The position numbers and the translations under genes were made by a program. The notes under the pieces are model-generated. The model made no database searches and was not told where the DNA came from. It saw only the letters and a program-made list of their open reading frames with translations. A stretch of DNA of 63,116 bases, the filler included, from Reclinomonas americana ATCC 50394 (taxonomy: Eukaryota), in NCBI GenBank assembly GCA_048213135.1. It is 14 parts of 14 records of this genome, joined end to end, with 100 filler letters (N's around TTAATTAATTAA, not from the genome) between each part and the next. Parts side by side here need not be neighbours in the genome. Positions count along the whole stretch, not along the records: positions 1 to 12,295 come from AFZH01018298.1; 13 more parts are not named here. One strand, given 5' to 3'. How positions within the stretch are numbered: the stretch's first letter is position 1; every line of letters begins with the position of its first letter. Positions 1-27,998 of the stretch are shown one piece after another.

Positions 1-2375
1 CGTGCACTGCAAATGATTCGCGAGCACGAGGTCGCCATGCAGGCCAGCGGAGTGGGATTGCTCCCGATACCGCCACCGTCGCCGCAGGAGCAGGAACAGG
101 AGGAAAAGGGCGACGGCGACGCGGACAGCGGACGTGGTGTGTCGCCACCCGAGCCGGGCACGGGCGCCAGCAGCAGTTCGTCGTCGGCGGTCACCGCCAA
201 GCGGCTCATTCGCGTGCTGGTGCCGCTTCCGCCGCTGCAGGTGGGCGGAGGAGGGGCGAGTGGGAGTGGAGAGCGTGTGAGTCCGGGTCTGTCGCCGACG
301 TCGCGGGCCGCCGATGTGAAGCAGCGGTTGATGAGTTTGTGTCGGCATAATCGAGTGGCGGAGATTCGGTGAGGGGGGTGAAGGGGAAAGGGGAGAGAGG
401 GAAGGAGGGAAGGGAGAGGAGGGGAAGGGAGAAGGAAGGGGGGAGAGGGAAGAAAGAGGCAGGGAGACAGAGAGAAAGAGAGAAATTGGCGGAGAGAGAG
501 AGAGAGGAGGGAAGGGGGCAGTGAGAGATGGAGGAAGAAATTAGCAGGAGAAGAAGGCAAGGAGAAGGCGGAAGAGAGAAAGTGGCAGGGTAAAAGAGAC
601 CTCCTTCGTCTTGTCTCTCTTGTCCCCTGTCTATTCTCCCTGTCTCTTTTCGTAGGCAAAAGGCAAAAAGAAGCAGGCAGGGAGAAAGAGAGAGGGAGAA
701 TGAAGCAGTGAGAAAAATGCAAGGAGAAAGAGGCAGGGGGGAATGAAGCAGGAGAGCGAGAGAGAGAGAGAATTAGGGAGAAGAGACAAATAGAAAAGGC
801 ATCGAGAAAAAATGAAGGGAGAACGCGGCAGAGAATGGAGACATGAAGAAGGAGGCAGGGAGAAAGAGAGAGAGGGAGAATGAAGCAGTGAGAACGTGGC
901 AGGGAGAAAGAGGCAGGAGAACGAGGCAGGGAGAAAGAGGGAGAGGGGGAGAGAGAGAAAGCGAAAAATAGACCTCCTTCCTGTCTCTCTTTTCCCCTGC
1001 CTCTTTCTTCTTGTTCTTTGCTGTAGAGAAACGAAAAGGGGTAGGATGCAGGGAGAAAGAGACAGAGAGAAAGTGGTAAGGAGAAAGAGACAGAGGGAAT
1101 GAGGCTGGAAGCAAGTGTCAGGAAGAAAGGAGAGACAGAGAGATATGGACAGAATCAGGTTTAAAGGTTTTCAGAATGATGTAGGAGAGAATGGAGAGAA
1201 GGAAAGAGCGAGAGGGAGATCGACAAACTGACCCTTCTTTCATTCATATTACCAACCTTCTCACTTCTTGTCTCTGTCGCAGCTCTCTCCTCCGCCAGCA
1301 ATCGGAGGGCGACTGGCCCGCGCAGATGGCGCCACTGGTGGAGGTCCGTGACGGACATGGTAATACGCCGCTGTTGGTGGCTGCGCAGAATGGACACGTG
1401 CAGCTCATGAAGCTGCTGGTGGAGAATGGCGCGGATGCGCGTGCCAAGAATGTTGCGTGGGAGGGCCGGAAGGGGGGAAGGGAGAGAGGTGGCCTCTTGT
1501 TCGCCAAGTCTGTCGCGCACCATTCTGTGTGCTTTTTTCCGTCGGTCTCTCTGCGGCACTTACTTTTTCAGGCGCTACTTGCCTCTTGTTCTTCTCCCCT
1601 TGCCATGTTTCTGTTGTTGAATCCGTCTTCCTTCGATTCTTTCTCATCTTCATCTTTTTTCTCTCTCTGTCATCCGATCGATTTTCGATGCACCGTGGAA
1701 ACAAGGATTGGGTGCTCTCTCTCTCTCTCTTTCTCTATCTCTCGTTCTTTCTCCCTCTTCGGTGCATTTCTCTTTGTGTCTTGCACCGCTTTCTTCTCTT
1801 CTGTTGCCTTCCATCCATCGCTTGTGTTTCCGCGCTTCTTGTCTCTCTCTCTGTCTCACTCGCTCACTTTGCTTGTCTCCTTCTTTGCAAGCTTGATTTT
1901 ACTTAGAGTTCCAGCATAAAGTTTCCACACGCCACGCGCACTGAGCGCATCACATCCAGCATGTGCTTCTTCCGTCCGCGCTTCGCCTTCTCGCACTTCA
2001 GTTTTTGTTGCTTCCCTTGTCGTTCGTCTCCCTTGCATTTTCCGTCCTCCTTCTCTCTTTTCCCCTTCTCTCCCTTCCCCTCTCTTCCCTCTGCATCCCT
2101 TCCTCACACACTCTTTCCCTGCGCCACAGAATCACGACATGAGTGCGCTGTCCTTCGCCCTCAAGTTCAACAACCTGGCCTGCCGCGAGTACCTCGAACA
2201 GGTGCTGGATCAGTCGCGTGGCACCGGCGCTACTGCGACTGCCGCTGCGGCACGCAACGACGGCAAAAGAAAGTTGCCGATGACGGCCAGCGAGGGCGAG
2301 GCGGCAGATGAGGACACGGATCTGGTAATTACACCCGTGACGACGGCCACGGATCGGAGTGAGGCGGAAATGTAG
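1..2375 (+). CDS. Ankyrin-repeat protein, 3' part (5' end outside window); exons approx <1-368, 1282-1451, 2130-2375
   Basis: Spliced reading gives RDGHGNTPLLVAAQNGHVQLMKLLVENGADARAKN joined to NHDMSALSFALKFNNLACREYL, i.e. consecutive ankyrin repeats. GT-AG introns with GA/CT-rich content. TAG at 2373-2375. Confidence 0.75.
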
Positions 2376-3186
2376 GTTCCACACAAGCGGTGTTTTTTTG
2401 AGTGCTGGGGAGGGGGCATCTCTTCATTGCTGACAAATTAGCCCACTTTGGCGCTGGGAATCGCCTTTTGGGTAGTGAGGAGGTACTGCACGGAAGAGAT
2501 CGGCTCAAGATGAACTATGAATCCCGTTTGTTGATGGAGCAACGACTACTGCATTAAGAAGAGACAGATACGACGAGTAGCACGATGGATATGCTAGTGA
2601 CAGCCTGGCAGGCGGCCTGCTCTCGCAATCGCGCGCTGTCTCCCACTCTCCTTTCTCTCTCTCTCTCTGTGCCCATTTCTCGTACAGCCGACAGCCACAC
2701 ATAAATCCACAACTTCATAACAGCTCTCGCATCACCTGTTGGCTGGTTCCGCACAACAGCAATTCACGATGAACAAACAAGCAGCAAGCAAAAGCTACCA
2801 AATGCACAAGAACAGATATAGTGAGTGCTGTGCTCAACAATCTCTCTGCTGCACAAGCATACCTTGTGGATTGCCAGAGACGGTGCAGGGTAAGCAGATC
2901 GCTGCTGCTCGAGAGTGGCTGTTGAGTGCACCAGGTCGCGTTGAAGTTGAGAGACCCATTCCTCGATAGCAGCTCAATCGCGTTCCACGCATGCCACTAG
3001 TGCCACAGCCGCCGCCCTTGCTTGCTCCGCTGTTCGTGAAATGCGCTGCTCTTCGGCCAGCGCTTGCCCGGCATGCGGCCTGGCTTGTTCCGCGGCGCGC
3101 GAGTTGTGATCCAACTGTCGCCCTGGCTTGCTCCGCAGTACGTGAAATGCGCTGTTCTTCGGCCAGCGCTTGCTCGGCATGCTGCC

Positions 3187-6077
3187 TTACTCCGCGGCGC
3201 GCGAGTTGCGATCCGGCTGTGCCACTCGTTCATCAGCGCGTGCAATACGCTGCTCGTCGGCCAGCGCTTGCTCCAGCGTCCTGGCACGTTCTGATTCCGC
3301 AGCGCGCTGCTCCGTCGCTGACGCTTGTTCCTGAAGTGCCAGTCGCTCCTCCACAACAGCTCTGGCACGTTCCAGCTGCGCTACACGCTCCTCAGCAGCG
3401 CGTGAGATGCACTGCTCCTCAGCCAGTGCTTGCTCCTGCTGTGCCAGTCGCTCCTCCACCACAGCTCTGGCACGTTCCAGCTGCGCTACACGCTCCTCAG
3501 CAGCGCGTGAGATGCGCCGCTCCTCAGCCAGTGCATGCTCCGCTTGCGCAGCTCGCTCCGCCGCAAGCACTGTGTCTCGTTGCAGAAGGACCGCATTCTC
3601 CTCCAGCTGAACCACGCGCTGGCGGAGCCGCGCCACAGTGCCTTCGTACTGTCGGCGCTGGCGATTCCACTCTTGCTGCTGCAACTCCCGCTCTCGTTTC
3701 GCTGCGTCGAGCTCGCGCTGGAGTCGAGCGGTGTCGGCGGTGGCAGCAGCACCCTGCACGTATCACTTGTGAGACGAGCGATGGAGAATGAAGGTTACCA
3801 ACAGGGAGGAGTTCTCACCCGTTGTGTTGCGTCGGCTGCTGTGCGTTGGGCAAATAAGTCCGCGTTGTCAGCACGAACTCAGCACTGAAAGACAAGGCAA
3901 CGCACCTGGAGGCGAGGAAGCAGGAGGTGGTCGCAGTGGCTGTGCAGGCTGCGCGGTGAGGCGATCGAGCAACTCGGCCACTTGCTCCTTGCGGCCGTCG
4001 CGCGCCATCTTCGCCGCGGTCTTGCCCTCCTTGTTGACCATCGGAATGAGGTCGGGGTAACGAGTGGCGAGGAGTCGCACGATAGCCTCGTGGCCTCCAT
4101 AGGCCGCCAAGTGCAGCGCAGAGGCCTGGTCTTCTCTCGTGACCGCCAGCACCATCTTTGGCGGACATCGTCGCTCATCCGCCAGCAGCCACTCCACCAC
4201 TGGCAAATGCCCGTCGCGGGCCGCCGTCATCAGCGCCGTCTGGCCGTATCCATCGACCAACTGTGCGAGCTCTGAGCCCACACCACTCTCCGCCCACAAG
4301 TACTCCAGCACCGAGAGGCGGCCGAGACGTGCGGCACTGTGAAATGCCGAGTTGCCGAGCATGTCCATCTCCTCCCTCCGCAGCAACGTCCGAGCGCCCT
4401 CACGCGCCACCAGTTCGCGCAGTGCTTCGACTTCGCCACACCTCGCCATCTCGTACGCCCTCTTCCTTGGTAGTGGCGGTGGTGGAGGAGGTGGGGGAGG
4501 AGGATCACTGTGCAAGTCCACAGGCACTCAGTATACTTGAAGGACGTGAGTGAACAAGAATGGAGAGCACTACAAACCCTGCACCGCTGCTGTGCGGCAA
4601 CTCTGGCTGCCGATGGAGTTGGACGACGGAGGCATCATCCGCAGTCTGCGTGTGGAAACGAGAGGTCTGAGTTGGAGAAAGACACAGAGCAGCAACTGCG
4701 GCGATTCAGTCTCACCACCCGCAACGTGTCGGCTGCTTCAGTAATAGAGGTGATGAGAAGATGAGCACAAGGACTAAAGCATGCAACGCTGGACACACCT
4801 GGCGAAGAGAAAACAGACTGAGGTTGCTGCAGCTGCGTCTGGACAGTGTGCACATAGAAACGAGTTGGAGAGAGCCCGCAGAGCAGCTCTTGCAGCGATT
4901 TCAGGTCTCACCTCCCGCACCGTGTCGGCTGCTTCAGTCAAAGAGAGTGAGGAGAGGATCGCACAGGCCACGCTGAAAAAAGTGAAGAGCAATGCGCATC
5001 GACGCACCTGGTGAGGAAACAAGCTGGAGGGGGACGACGGAGGCATCATCCGCAGTCTGCATGTTGAAACGAGAGTTGGAGAGAGCTCACAGAGGAGCAA
5101 CCGCAGCAATTCAGGTCTCACCTCCCGTACTTCACTGGCGGCTTCAGTAATAGAGAGTGATGAGAAGATGAGCACACAGACTGAGCATGCAACGTTGAGC
5201 GCACCTGGAGGTGAGGAGACAGACTGAGGTTGCTGCTGCTGCCTCTGGACAGTCTGCACATAGAAACGAGTTGGAGAGAGCCCGCAGTGCAGCTCTTGCA
5301 GCGATTCAGGTCTCACCTCCCGTACTTCACTGGCAGCTTCAGTCAACGAGAGTGATGAGAAGATAAGCACACAGACTGAGCATGCAATGTTGAGCGCACC
5401 TGGTAAAGAGGAAACAGACTGAGATGGAGGAGGCACAACGAGATGGTCCAGCAGCTTGCCCACATGCTGCATGCCACACTCGCGAGCCCACTGCGCCGCC
5501 GTCTTGCCCTCGTCGTTGACCATCGGAACGAGGTCGGGAAAGCGCGTGGCGAGCAGTTGCACAACGGCTTCGTGGCCATTCCGCGCCGCCCAATGCAACG
5601 CCGTGCGCTGCTCAACAGTGACCGCCCGTGCTTGTTCCACCGGGCATCGTCGCTCATCGGCCAGCAGCCACTCGACCACTGGCAAATGGCCGCGCAAGGC
5701 AGCAATCATGAGCGGAGTCACGCCACTGGTGGTGACCAACTGTGAGAGTTGTGCCCCGACACCACTGCTCTCCTCCCACAGGTACTCCATTGTGGAGAGG
5801 TGGCCATTGCGAGCGGCCCACTGATATGCCGACTGGTTGTACTCGTCCATTTCTTCGCGTTGGAGCAGAGTGTGGGCGCCCTCGCGTGTGACGAGTTCGC
5901 GCAGGGCTTTTATGTCGCCATCTCTTCCCATTTCCCAGGCTTTCTTCCTGGGAGGGAGGAGGAGGAAGGAAAAGGAGAAGTGAGGCAGTGGAAAGGTGAG
6001 GGAGTGCGCAGTTGTCAAGAGTAAAAAAAAAACCTGGTGTTGGCATTGCCTGTGGCGCCACTGTGAGCGGCGCCCAT
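3187..6077 (-). CDS. Ankyrin-ankyrin-coiled-coil protein, kinase-less paralogue ('gene B'); possibly a truncated or decaying copy
   Basis: ATG at 6077 (MGAAHSGATGNANTR|KKAWEMGRDG). Ankyrin blocks approx 5400-5948 and 3906-4490. Repeated small linker exons at 4580-5337. Coiled-coil exon from about 3753 ends at TAA 3187-3189. Frameshifted coiled-coil remnant continues to about 2860 and no kinase follows. Confidence 0.75.
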
Positions 6078-6654
6078 TGTGTGTGTGAGAGAGAGACAGA
6101 GAGAGTGAGTGAGTGAGTGAGTGAGCGAGAGAGAGAGAGAGAGACGAGAGAGAGAGGGAGAGAAACCGAACAACAGGACAAACTATTCTCCGAAGAGCGA
6201 TGGGAGAGTGGGGCGTGCAAGAAAGAATTGAGACTGGAGCGGCGATAGACAACATGCAGAGGGGAAAAAATGACATGCCGTCCATTACATACAACTGCAT
6301 ATTTCTCTCAATCGACGTCGAACTCTCAAGATCTTTCCTCACATGGGGCGCCATCTCATTCTCCACTGATTTACTTTTCGTGTGTGTCGGTCCTCGCTGC
6401 ATATCATCGTGCATTGCTGCACCTTCTGCACTCGGTGCACGTGGAGAGATGATGGGCCCGCGGGCCACATGCACGTCGGACAGCTGAACGTCATCGCCAA
6501 CGTGGCGGAGCACACGATATGAGGTGGATAAGAAGCGGTACACACTGTGAGGGAGTGAGTGCCGTGTTCTGCCTCAGCTTCAACCGATCCACTGCTGTGC
6601 CTGGCTGCACACAGAAGCGGGCGAGTTGTTGCACAGTCGCAGCTCCGAGCAGCC

Positions 6655-9600
6655 TCACTGGAGCTCCAGCGTGAAATCACCCAGCTTCTCTCGCAGCTCG
6701 CACATCACGGCCTTGGCTTGCTCCGCAATCGGACGGTCAAAGAGCAGAGACATGCATCTGCAGGCACAGATAAGTGCCGCACGCAAACACACACTCCCAC
6801 CTTCCTCCAACGACAACGCAACTGCACTCCCAGCTTCAACATGCCACGCGCCACATCCTCCCGCCACTCGCCTGCCGTGCGGTCCGCCTCGGCCATCGCG
6901 TCCACCGCGTCTAGCGACCGCTCCCACACACGAGCCTGATCCACCAGCACATGCGCTTCGCGACCCGTCAGCAGCTGTAGGAGGATCAAGCCGAGAGCGT
7001 ACATGTCCATTGGGAGGCGAATTTTGCACGATTGCAAGAAGAGTGGGTCGATGTAGAACGTCGAGCCGGAGCGCGTCATGGTGTGGCGGTGTGTCTGCAG
7101 ATGGGGAAAAGGTGAGCTGAGCAACTTGCAGAGAGAAAGATCGTAGTAGCGGACCTCTCCCTCGTCAAAGACACGAGCAATGCCAAAGTCACCGACGCGC
7201 GGCTCACATCGGTTGTCGAGGAGGATGTTGGAGGGTTTAAGGTCCCGGTGCACCACGTCATTCTGTGGAGGGACAGGAGGTGTGGGAATGGGTCTTTCTC
7301 CTCTCTTCTTCTCTCATTGTCTCGGAACGAAGCCTTGCAGCACAAACATCGTGACCCTCACCTGATGCAGGAAGCACACACCCTCAGCGATGCCGAGTCC
7401 GATTTGCAATCGCTCTTTTACCGTCAGCGGCTGCATGTCGGCCGATCGGTTAAACAGCCGCTTCTCAAGATCGTGTCCACTGGGGTGTGTTCCTGGTGGT
7501 CAGCGACAAAGAGGGTAGAAAGGCCACAGCTTGTCTCGTTCTCCCGTCTGTTACGGTCACCTCAATCCTTCTCTTGCCACCGCATCTTGCACTTCCACTT
7601 GCTAACTGGTACATCTGGCACACCTGAGGCCACGCTGCCCTTCGTGTTTTCTATTTCTCTTCGTGGTCGCCGCCCTCGCCTGTCCTTACACGCAGTGTCC
7701 TCTCGTCACAATGCATCTCCAACTGGATCACCCATTGCATTCTCCAATGCCCCTTCACTTCTACCCCTCGCCTGTCCTTACACGTAATGCGCTCTCTTCA
7801 CGATGCATTCCAGTCAAACTACTACTTACTTCCTCTAGTCTCTTGCCACCGTTCGCTCCAATGACGCCCCCTCGCCTGTCCTTGCTGCTACTACCCCCTC
7901 ATCCTTCTACACTGCCGTCTGCTAGTCAAGGCGCCCACTTCTCACTCATATCATTCGAAGACAACAGGACTCGCACCGCCACCTCCCCTAACTTCCACTC
8001 ACCGCATGGCTCGATACACCAAACACCTCTCCCTCGTACCATCGTCCGCAAGCGTTGCATACCCAAGCAGAGGAACAAGTCGGCAATGATACAAACGCCC
8101 AATGGTGTTCATCTGCAACATCACTGACGAATGAGCACACAAACTCACTCAACCCCCTTTCCTCTCTGCGCACCTCCGCATCATACGACTCCATTGCCCA
8201 CGGCGCGGTGCTGTCGATCCGCTTGATGGCCACATCCTCACCGTCCAGCAAGCACAGATACACCTCGCCTTGACCGCCCTCACCGGCCTTGTAGCGCCGG
8301 TGGAAGGATTCGGTGGCGGAGACCACGTCGGCCCAGCCGTACTTGCGCAGGCGGCCGGGATGTGTCGCTGGCAGGATGGATAAGAGACGGCGGTTGATGT
8401 GAACAGCAACCTCCCTGCTGTGCATCCAAACCTTGCAGATTGCTCAACTCGCGGCGGAGACGATCGACTTGGCGAGTCAAGTCAGCGGCACGCTGCTTCT
8501 CGGTGGCAAGCGACTGCTCGAGGGCAGCACACCGCGCTTCAGCTGCTCGCTCCATGTCGCGTTGAAGTTGGGCAACTCGTTCCTGGAAAGCTGCTACTTG
8601 CTCCGTCGCCGCCGCTCTGGCGTCACGTATGTTTTGCTCAAGCTCGGCATTGGCGCGCTCCAGCTGCGCTGCACAATCCTTAGCAGCGCGTGAGATGCGC
8701 TGCTCTTCGGCCAGTGCCCGCGCCGCTTCTGCCGCGTCTCGATGAAGAAGAACTGCATTCTCCTCCAGCTGAACAACGCGGTGACGCAGCTGGGCCATGG
8801 AGCCTTCATGCTCACGGCGCTGCTGTTCGCGTTGCTGCTCAAGATCGTGAACCTGCTGCTCGCGCTCGTGTTTTGCTGCATCGAGCTCGCATTGGAGTCG
8901 GGCGACATCGGCAGCATTAGCAGCAGCAGCCTGCATTTTTGGAGAGAGATCAGAGATGGAGAATGAGAAACTCAAAGTGACGACAGTAGAAGCGATGAGT
9001 TTTCACCTGGTCTGCTGCAGGTTTGGAGTACAGTGCGTGTTTCGCCGACGTGTCAGCGAACAAGATGCAAGGCTTCAACACGAGGTGACGCACAGAATTG
9101 ATACTCACCTTGAGGGGTAGAAGAAAGAATAGGCGGTTGTGGCTGCGGCTGTGGTGGTGGTAGTGCTTGTTGCTCCGCAGAGAGGCGATCGAGCAACTTG
9201 GCCGCATGCAGCTTGCCACAGTGAAGTGCCCACTGAGCCGCCGTCTTGCCATTCTCGTTGACCATGGGAACGAGAGCGGGAAAGCGAGTGGCGAGGAGCT
9301 GCACAATGGCTTCGTGGCCGTTTATGGCAGCCCAATGTAGTGCAGTGGACCGTGGATCACTGGATCGAACGTTGGAGACCGCCCGCACCATCTCCGGCGG
9401 ACATCGTCGTTCGTCGGCAAGCAACCACTCCACCACTTGTAGATGCCCATTGTAGGCAGCCGTCATCAACGGCGTCCAGCCGTCGTCGGCGACATTTTGT
9501 GCGAGTTGTGGCCCGACATCGCTCTCCTCCCACAAACACTCCAACACAGGGAGATGGCCATGACGCGCGGCATAGTAAAATGCCGACCTGCCACCAGAAC

Positions 9601-9754
9601 TCATCTCCTCCCTGCTCAGTAAATTCTGCGCGCCCTCACTCGCCACCAACTCGCGAAGTGCCGTCACATCGCCATCCCTTGCCATTTCCCATGCATTCTT
9701 CTTCTGAGGTGGAGGTGGTGGTGGTGGTGGTGGTGGTGGTGGGTGGGGGAGGAG

Positions 9755-9785
<31 letters not shown>

Positions 9786-10961
9786 AGGAGAAAGTGCACT
9801 GCACACCCAAGATTCAGTGAACGGCAAGTTATATAAGAATGCACAATAGCAATACACACCTGGAGGCGCTGCTGCTGCCGCCAGCTTCGTTTCGCTGCTG
9901 CAACTCTGACTGTTGCTGGAATCGTTGGAGCATGCGGAAACGAAAAGTCAGAGGTGGAGAAGGAGAGACAAAGCAACACAGAGTAGCAATTCGGTCTCAC
10001 CTCCCGATTGGCGTCGACTGCGAATGTCAAAGTACAGCGGAGAGGTGATATGCAGCGAGAACGAAGAGAGAGAGAGAGAGACAGTGAGAGTGCATGCATC
10101 TCTGTGATTGTGCTGATCTCTCTCTCTCTCTCTCTCTCTCTCGTCTTTCTGTGACCTTGCTTGCCTCTCCTCGTCTTTTCTTCCCACAATGGTGAGGCTG
10201 TCTCTTCAGAAAACTCCTCGTCCTCTCCTCTCCTTCTTCCAAAGCTCTTCCCCCTATCAATCGACGCACCTGGTGGAAGAGGTTGTGACTGCCATTCCTG
10301 CAGTTGTGGGGGTGGTGGTAGTGGTGGTGGTGCGGACTGGTCAGCGAGACGATCGAGCAACCCGGCCACTTCGTGCTTGCCGTTGTCGCGTGCCACCTGA
10401 GCCGCCGTCTTGCCCTTCGCGTCGACGTTCAGAATGAGGTCGGGGAAGCGAGTGGCGAGGAGTCGCGCAATGGCTTCGTGTCCTCCCAGAGCAGCATAAT
10501 GCAGTGCAGTATAGTCGAATTTGTTGATCGCCCGCACCATCTCCGGTGGACATCGTCGCTCATCGGCAAGCAACCACTCCACCACTCGCAGATGCCCATA
10601 GAAGGCAGCCGCCATCAATGGCGTGTAGCCATAGTCGTTGACCGTTTGTGCGAGTTGCGGCCCGACGCCACTCTCCTCCCACAAATACTCCAACACAGAG
10701 AGATGTCCCCTTTGAGCGGCATAGTAAAATGCCGAGCGGCCATACGATCCCATCTCTTCTCTCTGCAGGAGAGTCTGAGAGCCCTCACTCACCACCAACT
10801 CGCACAGTGCCTTCACATCGCCCGCCTCTGCCATCTTCCATGCTTTTTTCCTTTATAAGCACGGCACACACATTCAATTAATACGTAACAAAGTGAGCCA
10901 CAGCAGGGGAAAAAGCAAACCTCCTTCCACTTCCAGTGGCTCCATTCTGTGCGGCACCCAT
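6655..10961 (-). CDS. Ankyrin x2 blocks - coiled coil - IRAK/Pelle/RLK-type Ser/Thr kinase ('gene A'), N-terminal Met-Gly
   Basis: ATG at 10961 (MGAAQNGATGSGRR|KKAWKMAEAG). ANK blocks approx 10270-10851 and 9109-9705. Coiled-coil exon 8432-8930. Kinase exons 8174-8367 (GEGGQGEVY, VAIKR), 8003-8112 (HCRLVPLLGY..CLVY), 7362-7479 (PLTVKERLQIGLGIAEGVCFLH), 7155-7262 (HRDLKPSNILLD..DFG), 6823-7094 (GSTFYIDP, DMYALGLILLQLLTG) and 6655-6757 (CMSLLFDRP) are phase-consistent. There is an apparent 1-nt frame discrepancy in the poly-Pro tract near 9740. Confidence 0.85.
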
Positions 10962-11329
10962 AGGTCGTGTGTGTACGTGTGGAGAAAGACAAAAATCTCA
11001 AAACCCGGACACAGTCAAATCACGCGATCGCGACACCCAAATCACGGCCAAACCAAGTCCTGTCAACAAGAGGACGACCCGTCACCGCAGCCCAAAGAGA
11101 TAGGGCGTGAAAGGGTGAGCATGCAGCAGCGAAGAAGGTGACGTGACACCACCCAACCCTCCTACAAAATTCGGATTTTCCGCCGACGTCGACGTCACTT
11201 CTTTCTTCACACCCTCTCCATCACCCGTTCACTTCTGGCCAATAAGAAGTCGTCTTCACTCTCCCCGTTACACCAATGCGTTAGCATTGACATGCAATTA
11301 CTTTATCAAAGATATTCCGATCCGAGTTG

Positions 11330-11760
11330 TTCTGCGATCCCTCACGCGCCACCGACTCATGCAGTGTCTTCATATCACCCTCCTTCGCCATCGCCCATGC
11401 CTTCTTCCTCGTCGGTTGTGGAGGGGGAGGAGGAAGAGGAGGAGGAGGAGGAGCACTGCGCACAACCACAATTCTGCAGTCAATACCGCGTAATGGAAGA
11501 GCGCATAGTAGCAAATACAAACCCTGCGGAATCATTTCGCTGCTGTCTCTCTCGTTGTCGCTGCAGTCGGTCGACGGCAGCTCCATCGACAGACTGCACG
11601 CGGAAACGAGAGACGACAGAGCAGCACAGAGAATCTCACCCCTCGAACTGCACCTTCGTCGGCTGCTGCTTCACACTACAGACAGCGAAGAGAAGATGAG
11701 CGACCGGCCACTACCGAGACGTGAACACTGAGGATGCATCGTCGACACACCTGAAGCCGA
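11330..11760 (-). pseudogene. Remnant of linker exons plus a truncated ankyrin block from the same family
   Basis: PPPPPQPTRKKAWAMAKEGDMKTLHESVAREGSQN matches the start of the ANK blocks of genes A and B but breaks off near 11330. Upstream sequence resembles the mini-exon/linker introns. No start exon and no downstream domains. Confidence 0.6.
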
Positions 11761-11798
11761 AGATACAAAACTTGGATGGCGGTCAACACCAAGCAGCC

Positions 11799-12240
11799 TC
11801 ACTGGAGCTCTAAAGTAAACCCACCCAACTTCTCGCGCAGCTCGCAGATCACGGCCTTGGCTTGCTCCGCAATCGGACGGTCAAAGAACAGAGACATGCA
11901 TCTGCAGGCACAGATAAGTGCCGCACGCAAACACACACTCCCACCTTCCTCCAACGACAACGCAACTGCACTCCCAGCTTCAACATGCCACGCGCCACAT
12001 CCTCCCGCCACTCGCCGGCCGTGCGGTCCGCCTCGGCCATCGCGTCCACCGCGTCTAGCGACCGCTCCCACCGACGAGCCTGGTCCACCAGCAGACGTGC
12101 TTCACGACCCGTCAGCAGCTGCAGGAGGATCAAGCCGAGAGCGTACATGTCCATTGGGAGACAGATCTTGCACGTTTGCATAAAGAGCGGGTCGACGTAG
12201 AATGGCGAGCCGGAGCGTGTCATCGTGTGGCGGTGTGTCT
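11799..12240 (-). CDS. C-lobe of a further IRAK/Pelle-type kinase paralogue ('gene C'); 5' part lies in the assembly gap
   Basis: THRHTMTRSGSPFYVDPLFMQTCKICLPMDMYALGLILLQLLTG...CMSLFFDRP...LELQ* is a close copy of 6655-7094, including the last intron. Confidence 0.85.
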
Positions 12241-12295
12241 GTATACGGGGAAAGAGTGAGCTGAGCAAGTTGCAGAGAGAACGAGGGAGACAATG

Positions 12296-12395
12296 NNNNN
12301 NNNNNNNNNNNNNNNNNNNNNNNNNNNNNNNNNNNNNNNTTAATTAATTAANNNNNNNNNNNNNNNNNNNNNNNNNNNNNNNNNNNNNNNNNNNN
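12296..12395. other. Assembly gap with six-frame-stop linker; the same 100-nt pad recurs at 15084, 19898, 22694, 25810, 30492, 32187, 35000, 40244, 44705, 47723, 49369 and 55399
   Basis: Identical 44N-TTAATTAATTAA-44N pads, many next to microsatellites. Several genes continue colinearly across them. Confidence 0.97.
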
Positions 12396-19997: not shown

Positions 19998-21740
19998 CCT
20001 TGTCCAACATGGATCGACTCTCGTGCACCTCCGTTGGATCTAGAAACAAAGACAGCGGGGCCGGGGCATGGTGGTCTCCACTGACTGCCGCCGCCGCCTC
20101 GGCGAGTGCCGTCTGATCTGTGAGCACACGCCACATCTCCGTCTCCATGTCGCGACAAAGGTCGGCCGGGAAGAATTCGATGCGCGGATACACTGCCGTC
20201 CGCTTGTGGGCGCGCAGCACAGGCAACAGGGTGTGCACCGGGGGTTCGGAGCGATCCGGCAGCGGCGGCGGCACCATGGTGAGGCTGCGCTGGGCGAACT
20301 GCGGTCCGAGATGTTCACATTCTCGCGATATCGATCGCTCCTCCACTGTAAGATCGGCACCTCCTGTGTCGCGATCGCCCCAAGACAGTGAGTTTTGGGT
20401 GACATGGAAGGGTGAAAGGATCCTTGTTGTCTTGTCTCACAAACCGTACAAGGAGAGGCAGAGGAGGTCAGCACGCGTCAGCCGCGGTGCAGAAGAAATC
20501 GACAGCATCAGCAGCAGCTGCGTGGCGTATCTCCACTCGGCAAGGAATGGTCGACGCCGAGCAGCGGCGAGTTGGACCGCGGCAGGAGCCACAGTAAGCG
20601 GCTTTCGCCGCTGCACATTGCACGAATGAAAACAAGGAGAGGGATTCTCGTTGATGTATGCAAATGTTCGCCACGCAACAGCCCAGTCAACCACAAACTC
20701 GCAAAACAACTTGCGCCGATCAGAGATCCTTCTGTCGTTCTGTTTGCAACACGCACGGAGTTCAGCTCACGACGGTATGACAGGTGGAAAGGATAAAGGG
20801 CCACTCCGTCCTCAAAACTACCAAACATGCTACAGAGCGAGAGAGAAGTCGACAATGGTAAAATAGCGTTGCATTCTCCTTCTTACCTCCACAAGCGTGT
20901 CCCAACTACGCTGCAGTACTTTGTACGCCAGATCATTGTCCTCGCCAACCGCCACCAAGACTACGAAAGCGCGAGAGTGTCAGCTGTGGATGATTTGACT
21001 CGCTCGTTGTCGGTTTTCAAAGAAAAAAAAGTCGACACTCACCTGCGCCCCACAACGTGGGCGCCGAGTAGGCGTCCACGTGTACTACATCCCTCCGCGA
21101 CACGTAATCCAAAGTCACAGTCAACATTCGCGAAGGGTACATGACAAATCGCGGCAAGTCCATCCTGCAGATGCGACGGGCTCTTTCGTCATCACCTGTC
21201 AGTGTGAGAGCGCAGCATCCGACACGCTTGAGATGCATGGTCTGAAGTGGCGCAGAGTGCGCGGTAAGAGAGCGCGCAGAGTGGAGAGAGAACGGCAAAC
21301 AAGCGCATGTGTACACCTGTAATTTAGAGAACACTCTGTTTGCGACTCGTTCGACAAGGTCTTCGGCCAGCGTTGTTGCCCGAGGGAGAGCATCACTTGC
21401 CAAGACTCTATGCACTGTGCTCGAGGCGCACAGCGTGATCAACAAAACAGCATCAGCCAACTACACTGCGCACTGATATCTTCACTCACTCACCAGCGTC
21501 TCCAATGGTGTCGTGCTCGTGAGTGACAGTCACCACCACTTCCCCGCCAGTGTCAAGTGGCACAGCCACATGTTGTGCAGGCAGCGCAGGGTCCAACACA
21601 CGCCGAGGACTTGCCAGCCTCACATCGTCTCCCGCTTGTTTACCGCGACACGCAACGAGGGCAGAGAGCAAGACGAGGAGAAGGAGTGGAGGGAGCACGC
21701 GCGAAAGGGCACACAGTGGCGGTGGCGCGCGCTGCCGCAT
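19998..21740 (-). CDS. GT77-like glycosyltransferase paralogue 3 (N-terminal part; C-terminus in gap)
   Basis: MRQRAPPPLCALSRVLPPLLLLVLLSALVACRG hydrophobic leader, and exons colinear with copies 1 and 2. Confidence 0.6.
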
Positions 21741-21916
21741 CGCAGCGGAGTTGGAACGGGCTCGACGGATTTGGCAAATTAAATCGAAACTGGCGGGCGA
21801 ATAATGAACAATCGCTGCGTGCAGGTGGGTTGTGTACGGCGGGTGACATATACATGGTGCGCGGAAAGCGTGCAGCAGGAGGAGCAATTGCGACTTACAC
21901 CTTCACTGATAGCAGA

Positions 21917-24520: not shown

Positions 24521-24858
24521 TCACTCACACTGCGCTTTCTCTCTCTCTCTCTCTCGCACACACACACATTGCACTGATCACTTGCTCTCTTTCTCTCACT
24601 CACTCACTCACCAGCGTCGCCAATGGTGTCATGCTCATGAGTGACAGTCACCACCACTTCCTCGCCAGTGTCGAGTGGCACAACCACATGTTGTGCAGAC
24701 ACCGCGGGATCCAACACACGTCGAGGACTTGCCAGTCGCGGGTCATCTCCTGCTGGTTCACCGCGACACACAACGAAGGCAGAGAAAAGGGCAAGGAGAA
24801 GGAGTGGAAAGAACACGCGCGAAAGGCCACTTAATAGCGGTGGCGTGCGCTGCCGCAT
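21917..24858 (-). CDS. GT77-like (nucleotide-diphospho-sugar transferase) glycosyltransferase paralogue 2; spans a gap
   Basis: Hydrophobic leader at 24858. C-terminal domain has FHTDVDAVF (DxD), INAGVW, DHDQQFMN and a terminal VH.C...K..L....LWW motif. Confidence 0.65.
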
Positions 24859-25031
24859 CGCAGCGGAGTTGCAGATCGGAATCTGAAAACTGGACGACGA
24901 ATTATGAACACCACAGCAATCGTGAGCAGCTGGCAGGCGGTTGTGTACGGCGAGTGATACATCTGGTGCGCGGAAAGCGTCCAGCAGGAGGAGCAATTGC
25001 GTCGTGCCAACTTCACTACGTTAACAAATGA

Positions 25032-25918
25032 TCATGACGGAAGTGGCTTCCACCACAGCGATCTCTTGAGCAAGTCGATCTTTCGCCCGACTCCGCATCC
25101 GTGCACCTGCACATGCATACGGTGGCGTATGAGAAAGAGAAGAAGCTACGAGCACCCCTCATATCCCACACCGCCCACTTACCACCATCAAGTCAGTCTC
25201 CTCCGGTATGTCGCTCATTTGCTTCCGCGCGACCAGCAACTCAATTCCACTCACGGTGTTGACCTGCTGCAGATTGAACCAGTCGACGCGCAGCCGACCG
25301 AGGCGCACATGCACGTCCACTAGCGCATTCATGAATTGCTGGTCGTGGTCGTGGAGATGTGGCCAGTGTTTGTGCAATTGCCCGACGGCGGCCGCAAACA
25401 GTCGCAGAGAGTACACGGTTGGGCGTGCTGTCCACACTCCCGTGTTAATACTCAGCGCACGCTGGTGAGAGGCGCACACGTGGGCCGGTGTGCCCTTCTG
25501 CAATCACGCGGACACTTGAGTGACACAACGGTATTTGCAATGATGTTGTTTTCCAGTTGCTCACCGCGCCGAAGTCCGACAGGCTGTTGGGGATCGCGTA
25601 CGACCAAGGATTGCGTGTACGCTCTCTCGGTGTCGCCTCCAACATCAGTGTCGCATCATGGTCGACAAGACCAACGAGGTCGCCCTGGAAGATGATGTCG
25701 GGTAGGATATCGTACAGCTCCGACACGGACGACACCTGCGGCAGATCCCACACTGGCCGAACAAACACGGCATCCACGTCGGTGTAGAACGGTTGCACAC
25801 CGCATCGCANNNNNNNNNNNNNNNNNNNNNNNNNNNNNNNNNNNNNNNNNNNNTTAATTAATTAANNNNNNNNNNNNNNNNNNNNNNNNNNNNNNNNNNN
25901 NNNNNNNNNCGCGTCGTC

Positions 25919-27967: not shown

Positions 27968-27998
<31 letters not shown>

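What the first reader, a model, noticed from the sequence alone, without database searches (positions are those of the whole stretch)
3906..10851. Natural DARPin-like hypervariability across four ankyrin blocks
Seen: four blocks of about 155 aa have near-constant frameworks (LEYLWEESGVG.QLAQ.V; VVEWLLADERRCP; GHEAIV.LLATRFP.L; GKTAA). They differ strongly at the beta-turn and first-helix positions. Repeat 1: GSYGRSAFYYAAQR / SSGGRSAFYYAARH / DEYNQSAYQWAARN / DMLGNSAFHSAARL. Repeat 2: NDYGYTPLMAAAFY / ADDGWTPLMTAAYN / TTSGVTPLMIAALR / DGYGQTALMTAARD. Repeat 3: NKFDYTALHYAALG / SNVRSSDPRSTALHWAAIN / TVEQRTALHWAARN / TREDQASALHLAAYG. Established: these are the concave-face positions randomised in designed ankyrin repeat proteins. 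Inference: a diversified binding repertoire, with each block carried as a single swappable exon.
Basis: partly seen in the sequence, partly recalled or inferred. Interest (0 to 1): 0.8.

Follow-up and report, generated by a model that had tools for sequence, protein, structure and literature searches.

The report
Diversified ankyrin modules of kinase genes
Four single-exon ankyrin domains in a protist kinase-gene cluster keep the same scaffold but differ almost completely at their predicted binding-surface residues, which suggests a small family of recognition modules, although adaptive diversification is not proven.

Summary
Four minus-strand blocks (58-67% amino-acid identity) are ankyrin domains of N-cap + 3 repeats + C-cap. 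The model has pLDDT 91.5, and its best structural matches are N3C DARPins. Variable columns pile up at DARPin library positions: 13 of 18 against 24 of 145 elsewhere (p=2.4e-6). These positions are rich in Tyr, Arg and Asn.

Each block is one exon with a conserved ATG and a phase-1 donor. A micro-exon of 8, 17 or 20 nt follows and restores the frame to a coiled-coil exon. An RLK/Pelle/IRAK-like kinase comes next. The layout is two blocks, coiled coil, then kinase, and the block-block-coiled-coil part occurs twice in tandem.

Standard codon tests support positive selection (M1a/M2a p=1e-4, M7/M8 p=3e-6, omega about 4 on 13-16% of sites). The signal disappears when sites may differ in overall rate (p=0.61). 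The blocks are also recombinant mosaics and the introns are nearly saturated.

Diversifying selection is therefore plausible, about even odds, but unproven. Relaxed constraint alone fits the composition and rates poorly. "Swappable" exon use is untested because no RNA data were available. The closest precedent is hypervariable ANK repeats in fungal NLRs.

The parts
10270..10850 (-). Block B1: single exon for an ankyrin domain (N-cap, 3 repeats, C-cap, proline-rich tail). The conserved ATG is at 10834-10832. A TAA stop lies directly upstream, and there is no polypyrimidine tract.
   Evidence: ORF and Pfam Ank_2 E=3.6e-23. Donor CCAG|GTGCGT located. ATG to donor is 565 nt, which is 1 mod 3 (coordinates).
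10001..10017 (-). Inferred 17-nt micro-exon m1 (reads VDANRE with the carried-over G), with donor G|GTGAGAC.
   Evidence: Conserved element seen. Its length is 2 mod 3, the same as the other micro-exons. Inferred from comparing paralogs; no RNA evidence.
9109..9703 (-). Block B2: single ankyrin-domain exon with ATG at 9685-9683. A (CCT/CCA)n tract of about 100 nt and then CAG lie upstream. This is the only block with a strong phase-0 acceptor.
   Evidence: (Ank_2 E=6.8e-25). ATG to donor (CAAG|GTGAGT) is 577 nt, which is 1 mod 3.
9007..9014 (-). Inferred 8-nt micro-exon m2, which restores the frame between B2 (phase-1 donor) and the coiled-coil exon (phase-0 acceptor).
   Evidence: Alignment of B2-CC1 with B4-CC2. 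Splicing B2 directly to CC1 reads a stop; including the micro-exon gives ...PQ-ADQ-AAAANAADVARLQ.
8432..8930 (-). Coiled-coil exon CC1, with acceptor TGCAG|G and phase-1 donor CAAG|GT.
   Evidence: Only weak Pfam coiled-coil-type hits. 46-52% amino-acid identity to CC2.
6655..8367 (-). Kinase exons of gene 1, RLK/Pelle/IRAK-like. Approximate exons are 8367-8177, 8112-8003, 7479-7363, 7263-7155 and 7094-6830, followed by a last exon ending at the stop codon 6657-6655. Introns are about 60-100 nt, apart from one of about 525 nt.
   Evidence: Pfam Pkinase E=6.5e-17. VAIK, HRDLKPSN and DFG are visible. Best solved relatives are BRI1, SOBIR1, BAK1 and IRAK. Exon limits were read by eye, and the last junction is unresolved.
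5400..5947 (-). Block B3: single ankyrin-domain exon with ATG at 5931-5929, a polypyrimidine tract plus CAG upstream, and donor CCAG|GTGCGC.
   Evidence: (Ank_2 E=2.9e-21). ATG to donor is 532 nt, which is 1 mod 3. Branch omega is 0.22-0.24.
5317..5336 (-). Inferred 20-nt micro-exon m3 (reads AASEVRE).
4585..5253 (-). Four tandem copies of a roughly 200-nt unit. Each unit holds a remnant of the coiled-coil exon start fused to a block-exon 3' end, a donor, an intron, a 20-nt micro-exon and a second intron. The 49-nt piece plus the 20-nt micro-exon make 69 nt, so each unit keeps the frame.
   Evidence: Self-blastn: 4614-4959 vs 5025-5364 is 83.7% identical, and 4669-5228 vs 4862-5423 is 72.9%. 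Sequence read.
3906..4465 (-). Block B4: single ankyrin-domain exon with ATG at 4449-4447 and donor CCAG|GTGCGT.
   Evidence: (Ank_2 E=1.6e-18). ATG to donor is 544 nt, which is 1 mod 3.
3819..3838 (-). Inferred 20-nt micro-exon m4 (reads AADATQR).
2837..3753 (-). Coiled-coil region CC2, which has internal repeats and a frame change near 3190-3229. No kinase exon follows in the remaining 2.8 kb of the window.
   Evidence: (3013-3480 vs 3119-3585, 74%).
11329..11409 (-). B0: a relic of a block's first 27 codons (MAKEGDMKTLHESVAREGSQ...), with the same upstream tract, after which similarity is lost.
   Evidence: tblastn; blastn 4397-4522 vs 11339-11470 and 9739-9860 vs 11411-11523.
11799..12295 (-). 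3' kinase exons of an upstream paralog (gene A), cut off by the end of the contig.
   Evidence: 91.9% nucleotide identity to 6645-7140. For the 89-codon exon, dS=0.23, dN=0.046 and omega=0.20. Contig linker at 12296-12395.

Best explanation
The four blocks are paralogous ankyrin domains, each encoded by one exon. Each has an N-cap, three repeats and a C-cap, about the size of an N3C DARPin. They belong to a lineage-restricted family of genes built as ankyrin domain, short linker, coiled coil, then an RLK/Pelle/IRAK-type protein kinase. The only close named relative is an EST-derived ORF that its source labels Reclinomonas americana, a jakobid flagellate.

Shown: the locus grew by tandem duplication of exon modules and whole units, and sequence has been exchanged among the copies. 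Shown: the scaffold residues are held by purifying selection, while the concave-face residues (beta-turn positions 2, 3, 5 and first-helix positions 13, 14, with some spill-over to 1, 9, 10) have been replaced to saturation and are rich in Tyr, Arg, Asn and Asp.

Inferred: each domain is a binding module with its own specificity. Binding, relayed through coiled-coil oligomerisation, would control the attached kinase. The paralogs would therefore form a small repertoire of cytosolic sensor or adaptor kinases. I judge it about even odds that the surface differences were driven by positive diversifying selection rather than only tolerated.

Each unit of ATG-block exon plus micro-exon ends in phase 0 and can be joined in frame to the coiled-coil exon. 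Which junctions are really used (tandem inclusion, alternative 5' modules or separate transcripts) is not known.
For: - Domain identity and fold: Pfam hits. AlphaFold2 model with pLDDT 91.5 and pTM 0.88. Foldseek top hits are N3C DARPins, with TM 0.69-0.85 among the listed DARPin-sized hits, most 0.73-0.85.
- Position-specific variability: 13 of 18 against 24 of 145 columns (p=2.4e-6). At the 15 core positions, Tyr is 9 of 60 residues (15%) against 1.9% expected from codon frequencies and 1.7% in the rest of the domain; Arg is 18% and Asn 10%. The binomial p of 1.7e-6 treats paralogs as independent, which they are not.
- Purifying selection on the scaffold: omega_F is 0.27-0.32. No branch approaches omega=1 significantly; B3 is 0.22-0.24 and B1 is 0.5-0.83.
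- Fast surface evolution in my own GY94-F3x4 implementation: M1a/M2a 2dlnL=18.4 (p=1e-4), M7/M8 25.6 (p=2.7e-6), M8a/M8 21.1 (p=4.4e-6). About 13-16% of sites have omega about 4-4.6, and 16 of the 21 sites with posterior above 0.5 fall at repeat positions 1, 2, 3, 5, 10, 13 or 14.
- Checks on that result: 0 of 60 parametric-bootstrap replicates under M1a reached 5.99. The test stays significant with a two-segment recombination-aware model (15.4, p=5e-4) and without the columns next to the indel (13.7, p=0.001).
- A-priori partition: omega_D is 3.3-4.6 against omega_D=1 (p=1.7e-6 to 2.9e-10), while control helix-2 positions give omega=0.15.
- Simulation under the fitted model: neutral sites should mismatch at 0.37 and 0.45 at codon positions 1 and 2, whereas the observed values are 0.69 and 0.74.
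- Gene structure: splice-like limits, conserved ATG, and ATG-to-donor lengths of 565, 577, 532 and 544 nt, all 1 mod 3. Adding the micro-exons of 17, 8, 20 and 20 nt makes a multiple of 3 in 4 of 4 modules.
- Kinase: Pkinase E=6.5e-17; best solved relatives are BRI1, SOBIR1, BAK1 and IRAK.
- Relative: P0001 is 72-74% identical, starts at the conserved Met, and is flagged as a complete ORF by its source.
Against: - Only four full copies exist, and all codon analyses used my own code, not PAML or HyPhy.
- When among-site rate variation is allowed, M1a+G (lnL -1725.47) fits better than M2a (-1728.31), and M2a+G adds nothing (2dlnL=1.0, p=0.61).
- When the DARPin-position codons get their own rate multiplier, omega_D>1 is not supported (p=0.32-0.33; one partition even prefers omega<1, p=0.03).
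- Those codons also differ at third positions: 0.68 against 0.38 overall, and 0 of 5000 random 15-codon sets reach that value. This exceeds the 0.50 that the fitted M2a predicts.
- The blocks are mosaics. Informative sites split 22 for 12|34, 11 for 14|23 and 8 for 13|24, with a switch near nucleotide 360 (max-chi-square: 6 of 5000 permutations reach the observed value). Recombination is known to inflate site-model tests.
- In the two-segment model omega2 ran away to 194, a sign of saturation.
- Intron p-distances of 0.42-0.55 approach the 0.57 of shuffled controls. Against introns, the dN ratio at these sites is only about 0.9-2.1, with both quantities near saturation.
- These positions are the least conserved in ankyrin repeats generally, which is why DARPin designers chose them (recalled). 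Enrichment of variability there is expected without any adaptive process.
- There is no expression, splicing or binding evidence for this locus.
- Gene 2 (B3/B4-CC2) has no kinase exon in the 2.8 kb that remain.
Confidence: 0.55

Rival explanations
1. Relaxed constraint only. These are ordinary old paralogs of a signalling kinase family. Their solvent-exposed beta-turn and helix-1 positions are simply unconstrained and have drifted to saturation. No selection for diversity and no repertoire function is involved.
For: - The omega>1 signal vanishes with gamma rate variation (p=0.61) or with a partition-specific rate (p=0.32).
- The variable codons are saturated at all three codon positions.
- Introns are nearly saturated.
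- The same positions are the least conserved in ankyrin repeats in general (recalled).
Against: - With a common mutation rate, strict neutrality (omega_D=1) is rejected (p<=1.7e-6).
- The neutral class predicts position-1 and position-2 mismatch of 0.37 and 0.45, against 0.69 and 0.74 observed.
- Rescuing neutrality needs a 3-4-fold higher rate confined to isolated codons. Their neighbours are conserved even at synonymous sites; for example TCG GCA is identical in all four copies.
- Composition is far from the neutral codon equilibrium: Tyr is 15% against 1.9% expected, and Ala is 1.7% against 10%.
Confidence: 0.25
2. Variable-module locus. Within each unit, the two modules (ATG-block exon plus micro-exon) are alternative 5' modules, each with its own start, spliced one at a time to shared coiled-coil and kinase exons. 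This would resemble clustered protocadherin or UGT1A variable first exons and is the reader's 'swappable exon' idea made concrete.
For: - 4 of 4 modules keep a conserved ATG, a phase-1 donor and a micro-exon whose length restores phase 0, matching the phase-0 acceptor of the coiled-coil exon. This holds even for B1 and B3, which are not next to a coiled-coil exon.
- All four blocks show purifying selection.
- The source flags the P0001 ORF, which starts at the conserved Met, as complete.
- An intron of about 525 nt exists in the same gene, so long introns are possible here.
Against: - No RNA data are available.
- There are only two modules per constant region.
- It needs introns of about 1.07 kb (m1 to CC1) and 1.56 kb (m3 to CC2), where most introns are 60-100 nt.
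- B2, B3 and B4 carry a polypyrimidine tract plus AG upstream, like internal exons.
- B2 has a phase-0 acceptor that would equally allow in-frame tandem inclusion as B1-m1-B2.
- Frame compatibility may simply be inherited from the duplication.
Confidence: 0.15
3. B1 and B3, like the fragment B0, are left-overs of partial duplications. In this view they are not part of any functional mRNA or are stand-alone truncated genes, and only B2-CC1-kinase is a working gene.
For: - B0 is a clear 27-codon relic.
- B3 is followed by degenerate remnants of the coiled-coil exon start in four tandem copies, one of which has a mutated acceptor (CAC for CAG).
- No in-frame path through the remnant exon from B1 to B2 was found (read by eye).
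- The B1 branch omega is the highest (0.5-0.83).
- Gene 2 lacks a kinase in the window.
Against: - All four reading frames are intact over 177-192 codons.
- The B3 branch has omega 0.22-0.24 over the longest branch, and the free-ratio model is not significantly better than a single ratio (p=0.07-0.43).
- Exon and micro-exon lengths stay frame-compatible in 4 of 4 modules.
Confidence: 0.15

Closest known systems
Designed ankyrin repeat proteins (DARPins, N3C format)
   Same: Same fold and size: Foldseek top hits have TM 0.69-0.85 among the listed DARPin-sized hits (most 0.73-0.85) and 27-33% identity. The register aligns repeat for repeat. The variable positions coincide with the library positions 2, 3, 5, 13 and 14. 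Those positions have a Tyr- and Arg-rich, paratope-like composition.
   Different: These are natural proteins. The scaffolds are 58-67% identical, not identical. The inter-repeat loops are longer and have extra short helices (H58-62, H97-100, H131-135). Position 33 is conserved here (M/V/I). Variation also reaches positions 1, 9 and 10. No binding has been shown.
Hypervariable ANK, TPR and WD repeats of fungal NOD-like (STAND) receptors (Dyrka et al. 2014, PMC4986451; passages read)
   Same: These are natural ankyrin repeats with a few hypervariable positions on the concave face (inner helices and beta-hairpin). They are reported to be under positive selection together with recombination and concerted evolution, and are interpreted as a recognition repertoire.
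   Different: In fungi the variation is among near-identical (>85%) tandem repeats inside one gene and among alleles, with changes in repeat number, attached to NACHT or NB-ARC. Here it is among whole paralogous domains, one exon each. Repeats within a domain are dissimilar. The domains are attached to a coiled coil and a kinase, and no NOD domain is seen in the contig.
RLK/Pelle/IRAK-family kinases, especially plant and streptophyte coiled-coil kinases with a U-box
   Same: The best solved relatives of the kinase exons are BRI1, SOBIR1, BAK1, LysM-RLKs and IRAK1/4. The closest database proteins are plant RLKs and Closterium kinase+U-box proteins at 33-42% identity. A coiled coil lies directly upstream of the kinase, as in plant USP-CC-kinase-U-box proteins (that architecture is recalled).
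   Different: The N-terminal sensor is an ankyrin domain, not an LRR, lectin or USP domain. No transmembrane segment or U-box was found. None of the 36 listed relatives carries an Ank Pfam family. No kinase phylogeny was made, so subfamily membership is open.
Arrays of variable exons joined to constant exons (clustered protocadherins, UGT1A; Dscam mutually exclusive exons); recalled, not searched
   Same: Tandem paralogous exons, each encoding a complete recognition domain, lie upstream of shared exons. Each module is frame-compatible with the first constant exon.
   Different: There are only two modules per constant region, no RNA evidence of alternative use, and the exons are not phase-symmetric cassettes. 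The block-block-coiled-coil part of the unit is itself duplicated; the second copy has no kinase in the window.

Membership tests
Ankyrin repeat domain (Pfam clan Ank) | Significant match to the Ank family profiles above the curated cut-offs | tested here: met
   Ank_2 scores 67.5-87.9 bits against a cut-off of 27.3. Ank, Ank_3, Ank_4 and Ank_5 are also above their cut-offs in all four blocks.
Ankyrin repeat domain (Pfam clan Ank) | Stacked helix-turn-helix repeats joined by beta-turns | tested here: met
   AlphaFold2 pLDDT 91.5 with paired helices 35-42/45-53, 72-79/82-89, 110-117/120-129 and 144-150/154-167. Foldseek probability 1.00 to ankyrin and DARPin structures.
DARPin-like variable paratope | Variability concentrated at repeat positions 2, 3, 5, 13, 14 and 33 on a constant scaffold | tested here: met
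   13 of 18 against 24 of 145 columns with 3 or more residues (p=2.4e-6). Position 33 itself is conserved, with 2 of 3 columns invariant. The list of library positions is recalled and is corroborated.
Sites under positive diversifying selection | dN/dS above 1 at a class of sites in standard site-model likelihood-ratio tests | tested here: met
   M1a/M2a 18.4, M7/M8 25.6 and M8a/M8 21.1. Bootstrap under the null gave 0 of 60 replicates at or above 5.99. Own implementation, four sequences.
Sites under positive diversifying selection | Signal robust to synonymous or overall rate variation, recombination and a neutral (intron) reference | tested here: inconclusive
   Recombination-aware test 15.4 (p=5e-4), but omega2 ran away. 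With gamma rates p=0.61. With a partition-specific rate p=0.32. Introns are near saturation.
Fungal-type NLR/STAND hypervariable ANK repeats | NACHT or NB-ARC nucleotide-binding domain in the same protein | tested here: not met
   Only Ank and Pkinase families, plus weak coiled-coil hits, were found on the ORFs of the contig that were scanned. The contig is short (12.3 kb).
Fungal-type NLR/STAND hypervariable ANK repeats | High internal conservation (>85%) between tandem repeats of one gene | tested here: not met
   Repeats within a block are dissimilar. Whole blocks are 58-67% identical in amino acids and 68-76% in nucleotides.
Eukaryotic protein kinase, RLK/Pelle/IRAK group | Kinase catalytic motifs and a Pkinase profile match | tested here: met
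   Pkinase E=6.5e-17. GxGxxG-like GEGGQG, VAIK, HRDLKPSN and DFG were read.
Eukaryotic protein kinase, RLK/Pelle/IRAK group | Phylogenetic placement inside the RLK/Pelle/IRAK clade | not tested
   The evidence is best hits only: BRI1 E=2.5e-12, then SOBIR1, BAK1, IRAK1/4 and RIPK3, with MAPKs close behind, and plant RLKs. No tree was built.
Alternative or mutually exclusive exon array | Exons interchangeable without a frame shift | tested here: inconclusive
   The block exons are asymmetric: the acceptor is phase 2 in B1, B3 and B4 and phase 0 in B2, while the donor is phase 1. The unit from the ATG through the micro-exon is a multiple of 3 in 4 of 4 modules and matches the phase-0 acceptor of the coiled-coil exon.
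Alternative or mutually exclusive exon array | Transcripts that show alternative junctions | not testable with these tools
   No sequencing run was listed for this locus and no genome is held.

The most novel reading that the evidence does not exclude
A free-living jakobid flagellate carries a germline repertoire of DARPin-like recognition modules. Each module is one exon and is kept diverse by selection and exon-scale recombination. The modules would be coupled, perhaps by choice among alternative 5' modules, through a coiled coil to IRAK/Pelle-type kinases. This would be a non-NLR, non-LRR cytosolic non-self or prey-sensing system in a deep-branching eukaryote.
Probability: 0.12. Interest if true: 0.8.

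Novelty: new variant of a known kind. Interest (0 to 1): 0.5.

Why it matters
Natural ankyrin domains whose variation is focused on the designed-binder paratope have been documented mainly in fungal NLRs. This family has the same pattern but differs in three ways. The variation is between whole single-exon domains, the domains are attached to a coiled coil and an IRAK/RLK-like kinase, and the organism is apparently a jakobid.

If adaptive diversification holds up, it would widen the known ways that eukaryotes build recognition repertoires. It would also bear on the early history of IRAK/Pelle/RLK signalling outside plants and animals.

The modular exon layout makes clear, cheap predictions for cDNA sequencing. 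If diversification turns out to be only relaxed constraint, the locus is an ordinary lineage-specific kinase gene family.

Tried and rejected
- Whole genome: none is held for this window, so other family members could not be collected.
- Sequencing runs: none was listed, and no RNA holder was listed.
- Earlier scan notes: nothing by place or by sequence.
- Protein searches for relatives. The near-length search gave one close relative (P0001, 72%) and one distant one (P0002, 42%); the other 9 of 11 hits were generic ankyrin proteins. The 'longer' search gave 85 generic multi-repeat ankyrin proteins, and none listed a kinase family. In the exhaustive representative search the best 150 of 66,243 hits were giant ankyrin proteins apart from P0001, so it added nothing about family size.
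- U-box or another domain after the kinase: no Pfam hit, even at E<=1.
- The unspliced 599-codon ORFs 9053-10852 and 4774-6573 as real proteins: rejected. Their spacers contain (GA)n and (CT)n microsatellites and a recently duplicated tandem unit.
- An in-frame splice path B1-m1-remnant exon-B2: the remnant exon (56 or 38 nt) leaves phase 2, which does not fit B2's phase-0 acceptor. The last remnant before B4 also ends in a phase that fits none of B4's acceptors (read by eye).
- Gene conversion skipping single codons as the cause of the variable codons: rejected on principle, because conversion acts on tracts.
- Base-specific (DGR-like, adenine-directed) mutagenesis: the codon table shows changes at all bases. 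This was judged by eye and not quantified.
- The exact DARPin library positions could not be confirmed in the passages read from PMC8683736, so they are given as recalled.
- A search on the nuclear genome of the named relative (listing only) showed nothing on this gene family. No search aimed at this family was made, so I make no claim that it is unpublished.
- Script failures: one search used the wrong interpreter, and searches used the wrong frame. All were rerun correctly.

Full report
**Setting.** The window is not one stretch of chromosome. Thirteen linkers of the form N44-TTAATTAATTAA-N44 join at least 14 small contigs. The finding lies entirely in the first contig, 1-12295. No whole genome is held, no public sequencing run was listed for the locus, and earlier scan notes hold nothing. 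Everything below therefore rests on 12.3 kb and on database relatives. The DNA is eukaryotic: about 55-59% G+C, with microsatellites and short GT-AG introns. The only close database relative of the blocks is P0001, a 154-residue ORF from an EST that is 72-74% identical. Its source labels it Reclinomonas americana and flags it as a complete ORF. The window therefore plausibly comes from that jakobid or a close relative. A second, unnamed relative, P0002, is 42% identical and has the same Met start region and proline-rich tail.

**The observation.** On the minus strand tblastn finds four full blocks: B1 10852-10301, B2 9703-9164, B3 5949-5419 and B4 4467-3943. They are 58.7-66.7% identical in amino acids, and there is also a 27-codon relic, B0, at 11409-11329. 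At the nucleotide level the blocks are 68-76% identical. All four match the Pfam ankyrin families well above the cut-offs.

A model of B1, built with the six-sequence alignment, has pLDDT 91.5 and pTM 0.88. It shows an N-terminal helical cap, three full repeats and a C-cap-like fourth repeat, with extra short helices in the long inter-repeat loops. Its best structural matches are N3C DARPins and other designed ankyrin proteins, with TM 0.69-0.85 among the listed DARPin-sized hits, most 0.73-0.85.

I fixed the repeat register by the HMMER alignment to a DARPin chain. In that alignment the three internal modules of the DARPin differ from each other at positions 2, 3, 5, 13 and 14. This agrees with my recollection that the library positions are 2, 3, 5, 13, 14 and 33 (Binz et al. 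2003; not confirmed in the passages read).

With this a-priori set, 13 of 18 columns in repeats 1-3 carry three or four different residues, against 24 of 145 other columns (Fisher p=2.4e-6). With repeat 4 included the counts are 17 of 24 against 20 of 139 (p=4.3e-8). Of the 163 ungapped columns, 81 are invariant. Position 33 itself is conserved here, and variation also reaches positions 1, 9 and 10.

**Anatomy of the locus.** Similarity among the four blocks starts abruptly about 16-18 nt upstream of a conserved ATG. In B2, B3, B4 and the relic B0 a long polypyrimidine tract and an AG lie just upstream of that point. B1 instead has an in-frame TAA there and no such tract.

Similarity ends after a proline-rich tail at a conserved donor. 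The donor is CCAG|GTGCG in B1, B3 and B4. In B2 a CAAG|GTGAGT lies 21 nt further upstream. From ATG to donor the lengths are 565, 577, 532 and 544 nt. All are 1 mod 3, so the length differences are whole codons and the donor is phase 1 in every copy.

Aligning B2-to-coiled-coil against B4-to-coiled-coil shows that direct splicing to the coiled-coil exon (acceptor TGCAG|G, phase 0) would read a stop. Between the two exons lies a conserved element with its own acceptor, a CTGAC branch-like motif and a GTGA(G/A)A donor. If this element is used as a micro-exon (8 nt after B2, 20 nt after B4), it restores the frame exactly. The same element follows B1 (17 nt) and B3 (20 nt). In 4 of 4 modules, ATG-block plus micro-exon is a multiple of three and ends in phase 0. 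These micro-exons are inferred from paralog comparison only.

Downstream of B2 come a coiled-coil exon (8930-8432) and a kinase domain split over about six exons, ending at a stop at 6657-6655. Introns are about 60-100 nt, apart from one of about 525 nt. The kinase matches Pfam Pkinase (E=6.5e-17) and shows VAIK, HRDLKPSN and DFG. Its best solved relatives are BRI1, SOBIR1, BAK1, LysM-RLKs and IRAK1/4. Its closest database proteins are plant RLKs and Closterium kinase+U-box proteins at 33-42% identity. None of the 36 listed proteins carries an ankyrin family, and no U-box follows the kinase here.

The order on the minus strand is:
- the kinase 3' exons of an upstream paralog, gene A (11799-12295), which are 92% identical to gene 1, with dS 0.23 and omega 0.20;
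- B0, B1 and B2;
- CC1 and kinase 1;
- B3;
- four tandem copies of a roughly 200-nt unit;
- B4;
- CC2.

Each 200-nt unit is a remnant of the coiled-coil exon start fused to a block 3' end, plus a donor, the micro-exon and its introns. No kinase exon follows CC2 in the remaining 2.8 kb. The end of the B1-B2 spacer is homologous to the end of the B3-B4 spacer (by eye). The two-block layout is therefore shared by both units.

**Are the blocks 'swappable'?** Each block is a single exon. The exons are not symmetric cassettes: the acceptor is phase 2 in B1, B3 and B4 and phase 0 in B2, while the donor is phase 1.

Three readings remain open:
- The modules may be alternative 5' modules, each starting at its own ATG and spliced to the shared coiled-coil exon. 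This is in frame in all cases but needs introns of 1.07 and 1.56 kb.
- B1-m1 may splice into B2's phase-0 CAG|AAG, giving a two-domain protein. B4 offers only a weaker AAG|AGG phase-0 site.
- B1 and B3 may be separate or decaying units.

Against decay, all four frames are intact. No branch has omega near 1: B3 is 0.22-0.24, B1 is 0.5-0.83, and the free-ratio model is not significantly better than one ratio (p=0.07-0.43). P0001, whose ORF its source flags as complete, begins exactly at the conserved Met, which favours that ATG as a real start in at least one paralog. I could not decide among these readings.

**Is the variability adaptive?** Whole-block Nei-Gojobori omega is 0.22-0.60 with dS 0.38-1.17, so the blocks are diverged but not hopelessly saturated. 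I wrote a Goldman-Yang F3x4 likelihood program for the four-taxon tree.

Results in favour of positive selection:
- M0 gives omega 0.376, and ((B1,B2),(B3,B4)) is the best tree.
- Site models are significant: M1a/M2a 2dlnL=18.4 (p=1e-4), M7/M8 25.6 (p=2.7e-6), M8a/M8 21.1 (p=4.4e-6). They put 13-16% of sites at omega about 4-4.6. Of the 21 sites with posterior above 0.5, 16 lie at repeat positions 1, 2, 3, 5, 10, 13 or 14.
- Under the fitted M1a null, 0 of 60 simulated data sets reached 5.99 (maximum 5.65), so the test is not anti-conservative in this regime.
- With the a-priori partition and a shared synonymous rate, omega at the DARPin positions is 3.3-4.6 and omega=1 is rejected (p=1.7e-6 to 2.9e-10). 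The scaffold has omega 0.27-0.32, and control helix-2 positions have 0.15.
- Dropping the columns next to the indel in repeat 3 leaves 13.7 (p=0.001).

Results against, given equal weight:
- The blocks are recombinant mosaics. Parsimony-informative sites support 12|34 22 times, 14|23 11 times and 13|24 8 times, with a switch near nucleotide 360 (6 of 5000 permutations reach the observed max-chi-square). A two-segment model improves M0 by 21 log units. In it M1a/M2a stays significant (15.4, p=5e-4), but omega2 runs away to 194, a sign of saturation.
- When the DARPin-position codons get their own rate multiplier, omega>1 is no longer needed: omega=1 with a 2.8-4-fold higher rate fits as well (p=0.32-0.33).
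- With a gamma distribution of overall rates, M1a+G (lnL -1725.47) beats M2a (-1728.31), and M2a+G adds nothing (p=0.61).
- The reason is visible in the codons. The variable codons also differ at third positions, 0.68 against 0.38 overall (0 of 5000 random sets reach this). In the closest pair, B1-B2, the values are 0.73 against 0.24. The fitted M2a predicts 0.50 for its fast class.
- Intron p-distances between paralogs are 0.42-0.55, against 0.57 for shuffled controls. Only intron 2 of B1-B2 (0.36) and of B2-B4 (0.33) is clearly unsaturated. Against pooled intron distances, dN at the DARPin positions is about 0.9-2.1-fold; against those two introns it is about 1.6 and 2.7-fold. All of these rest on 60-170 aligned bases.

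Weighing these results. Pure neutrality at a common mutation rate is rejected: neutral sites should mismatch at 0.37 and 0.45 at codon positions 1 and 2, against 0.69 and 0.74 observed. Rescuing neutrality needs a several-fold higher rate confined to single codons whose neighbours are conserved even at synonymous sites (for example TCG GCA and GCC identical in all four copies). No ordinary mutational process is known to do that, and tract-wise gene conversion cannot spare single codons.

Composition at the 15 core positions is also far from drift equilibrium. Tyr is 9 of 60, Arg 11 of 60 and Asn 6 of 60, while Ala is 1 of 60 against 10% expected. This looks like a selected binding surface.

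I therefore put diversifying selection at roughly even odds and 'relaxed constraint only' at about one in four. With four recombining, strongly diverged copies and home-made code, this remains an open question.

**Mechanism proposed.** Each domain is a small binding module whose concave face differs between paralogs. That the module is an ankyrin domain is shown; binding is inferred from the fold and the surface composition. It is tethered by a proline-rich linker and a short alanine-rich peptide to a coiled coil, which is likely to oligomerise (inferred), and to an apparently active RLK/Pelle/IRAK-like kinase, whose catalytic motifs are present. Target binding would recruit or activate the kinase. 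Tandem duplication, unequal crossing-over (relic B0 and the 200-nt array) and exchange between copies (the mosaic) generate new modules, and selection or tolerance reshapes the surface.

**Comparison with what is known.** In what it works like, the nearest systems are DARPins (same fold, size and variable positions) and the hypervariable ANK, TPR and WD repeats of fungal NLRs. For the fungal repeats, Dyrka et al. 2014 report five positively selected positions per ANK repeat on the concave face, together with concerted evolution (PMC4986451, passages read). Membership of the fungal family fails on two tested features: there is no NOD domain, and there is no high internal repeat conservation. 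The kinase resembles plant and animal RLK/Pelle/IRAK kinases by best hits, but no phylogeny was made. Ankyrin-plus-kinase proteins as such are common (ILK, TNNI3K, RIPK4, DAPK; recalled). I found no ankyrin family among the 36 closest kinases, which is weak evidence that this particular combination is unusual.

**Verdict.** The repertoire idea is plausible, positive selection is suggestive but model-dependent, and exon swapping is untested. I rate it a new variant of a known kind, of moderate interest.

Noticed in passing
window 12296-12395 and 12 further sites (15084, 19898, 22694, 25810, 30492, 32187, 35000, 40244, 44705, 47723, 49369, 55399): The window is a chain of at least 14 small contigs joined by N44-TTAATTAATTAA-N44 linkers, many of them at microsatellites. 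Gene order across a linker therefore means nothing.
   Followed up: yes
window 58625-62518 (-): An uninterrupted 1298-codon ORF whose C-terminal half has at least 11 WD40 repeats, including a hit to the NWD2-type beta-propeller family. The first 690 or so residues were not assigned among the 25 of 47 families listed. It could be a STAND/NLR-like protein, which would be relevant to a recognition-repertoire reading of this genome.
   Followed up: no
window 57270-58580 (+): An intron-free ORF with a full-length match to glutathionylspermidine synthase (PF03738, E=1.1e-117). This enzyme family is linked to trypanothione metabolism in Euglenozoa (recalled).
   Followed up: no
window 28574-28981 and 29860-30261 (-): Exons with transketolase C-terminal and pyrimidine-binding domains. 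This looks like a pyruvate-dehydrogenase E1-beta-like gene split by introns and by a contig linker region.
   Followed up: no
window 21489-22400, 24607-25503, 27968-28410, and 20043-20477 / 25992-26738: Repeated elements on different contigs with similar ORFs (QSPPLPRQC.VAQPHVVQ... and ...SASPCTVCETR.QGSF...). The one copy scanned had no Pfam hit. Possibly a dispersed repeat or transposon.
   Followed up: no
window 9053-10852 and 4774-6573 (-): Two stop-free frames of exactly 1800 nt each run through blocks plus intron-like spacers that carry microsatellites. I take these as accidental, helped by the in-frame 200-nt tandem unit and low-complexity sequence.
   Followed up: partly
window 6645-7140 vs 11789-12284 (-): The 3' kinase exons of two neighbouring paralogs are 92% identical (dS 0.23, omega 0.20; the intron between them is 42/60 identical), whereas the ankyrin exons are 68-76% identical. 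Either this duplication is much younger, or the kinase part is homogenised more than the ankyrin part.
   Followed up: partly
window 1185-1916 (+): An ORF on the opposite strand with a single ankyrin-repeat hit (Ank E=8.8e-8), unrelated to the four blocks. It limits the space available for a kinase downstream of CC2.
   Followed up: no
window 7673-7721 vs 7765-7812 (-), inside the ~525-nt kinase intron: A short direct repeat (GTAAGGACAGGCGAGGG-type, 86% identical) inside the one long intron of gene 1.
   Followed up: no
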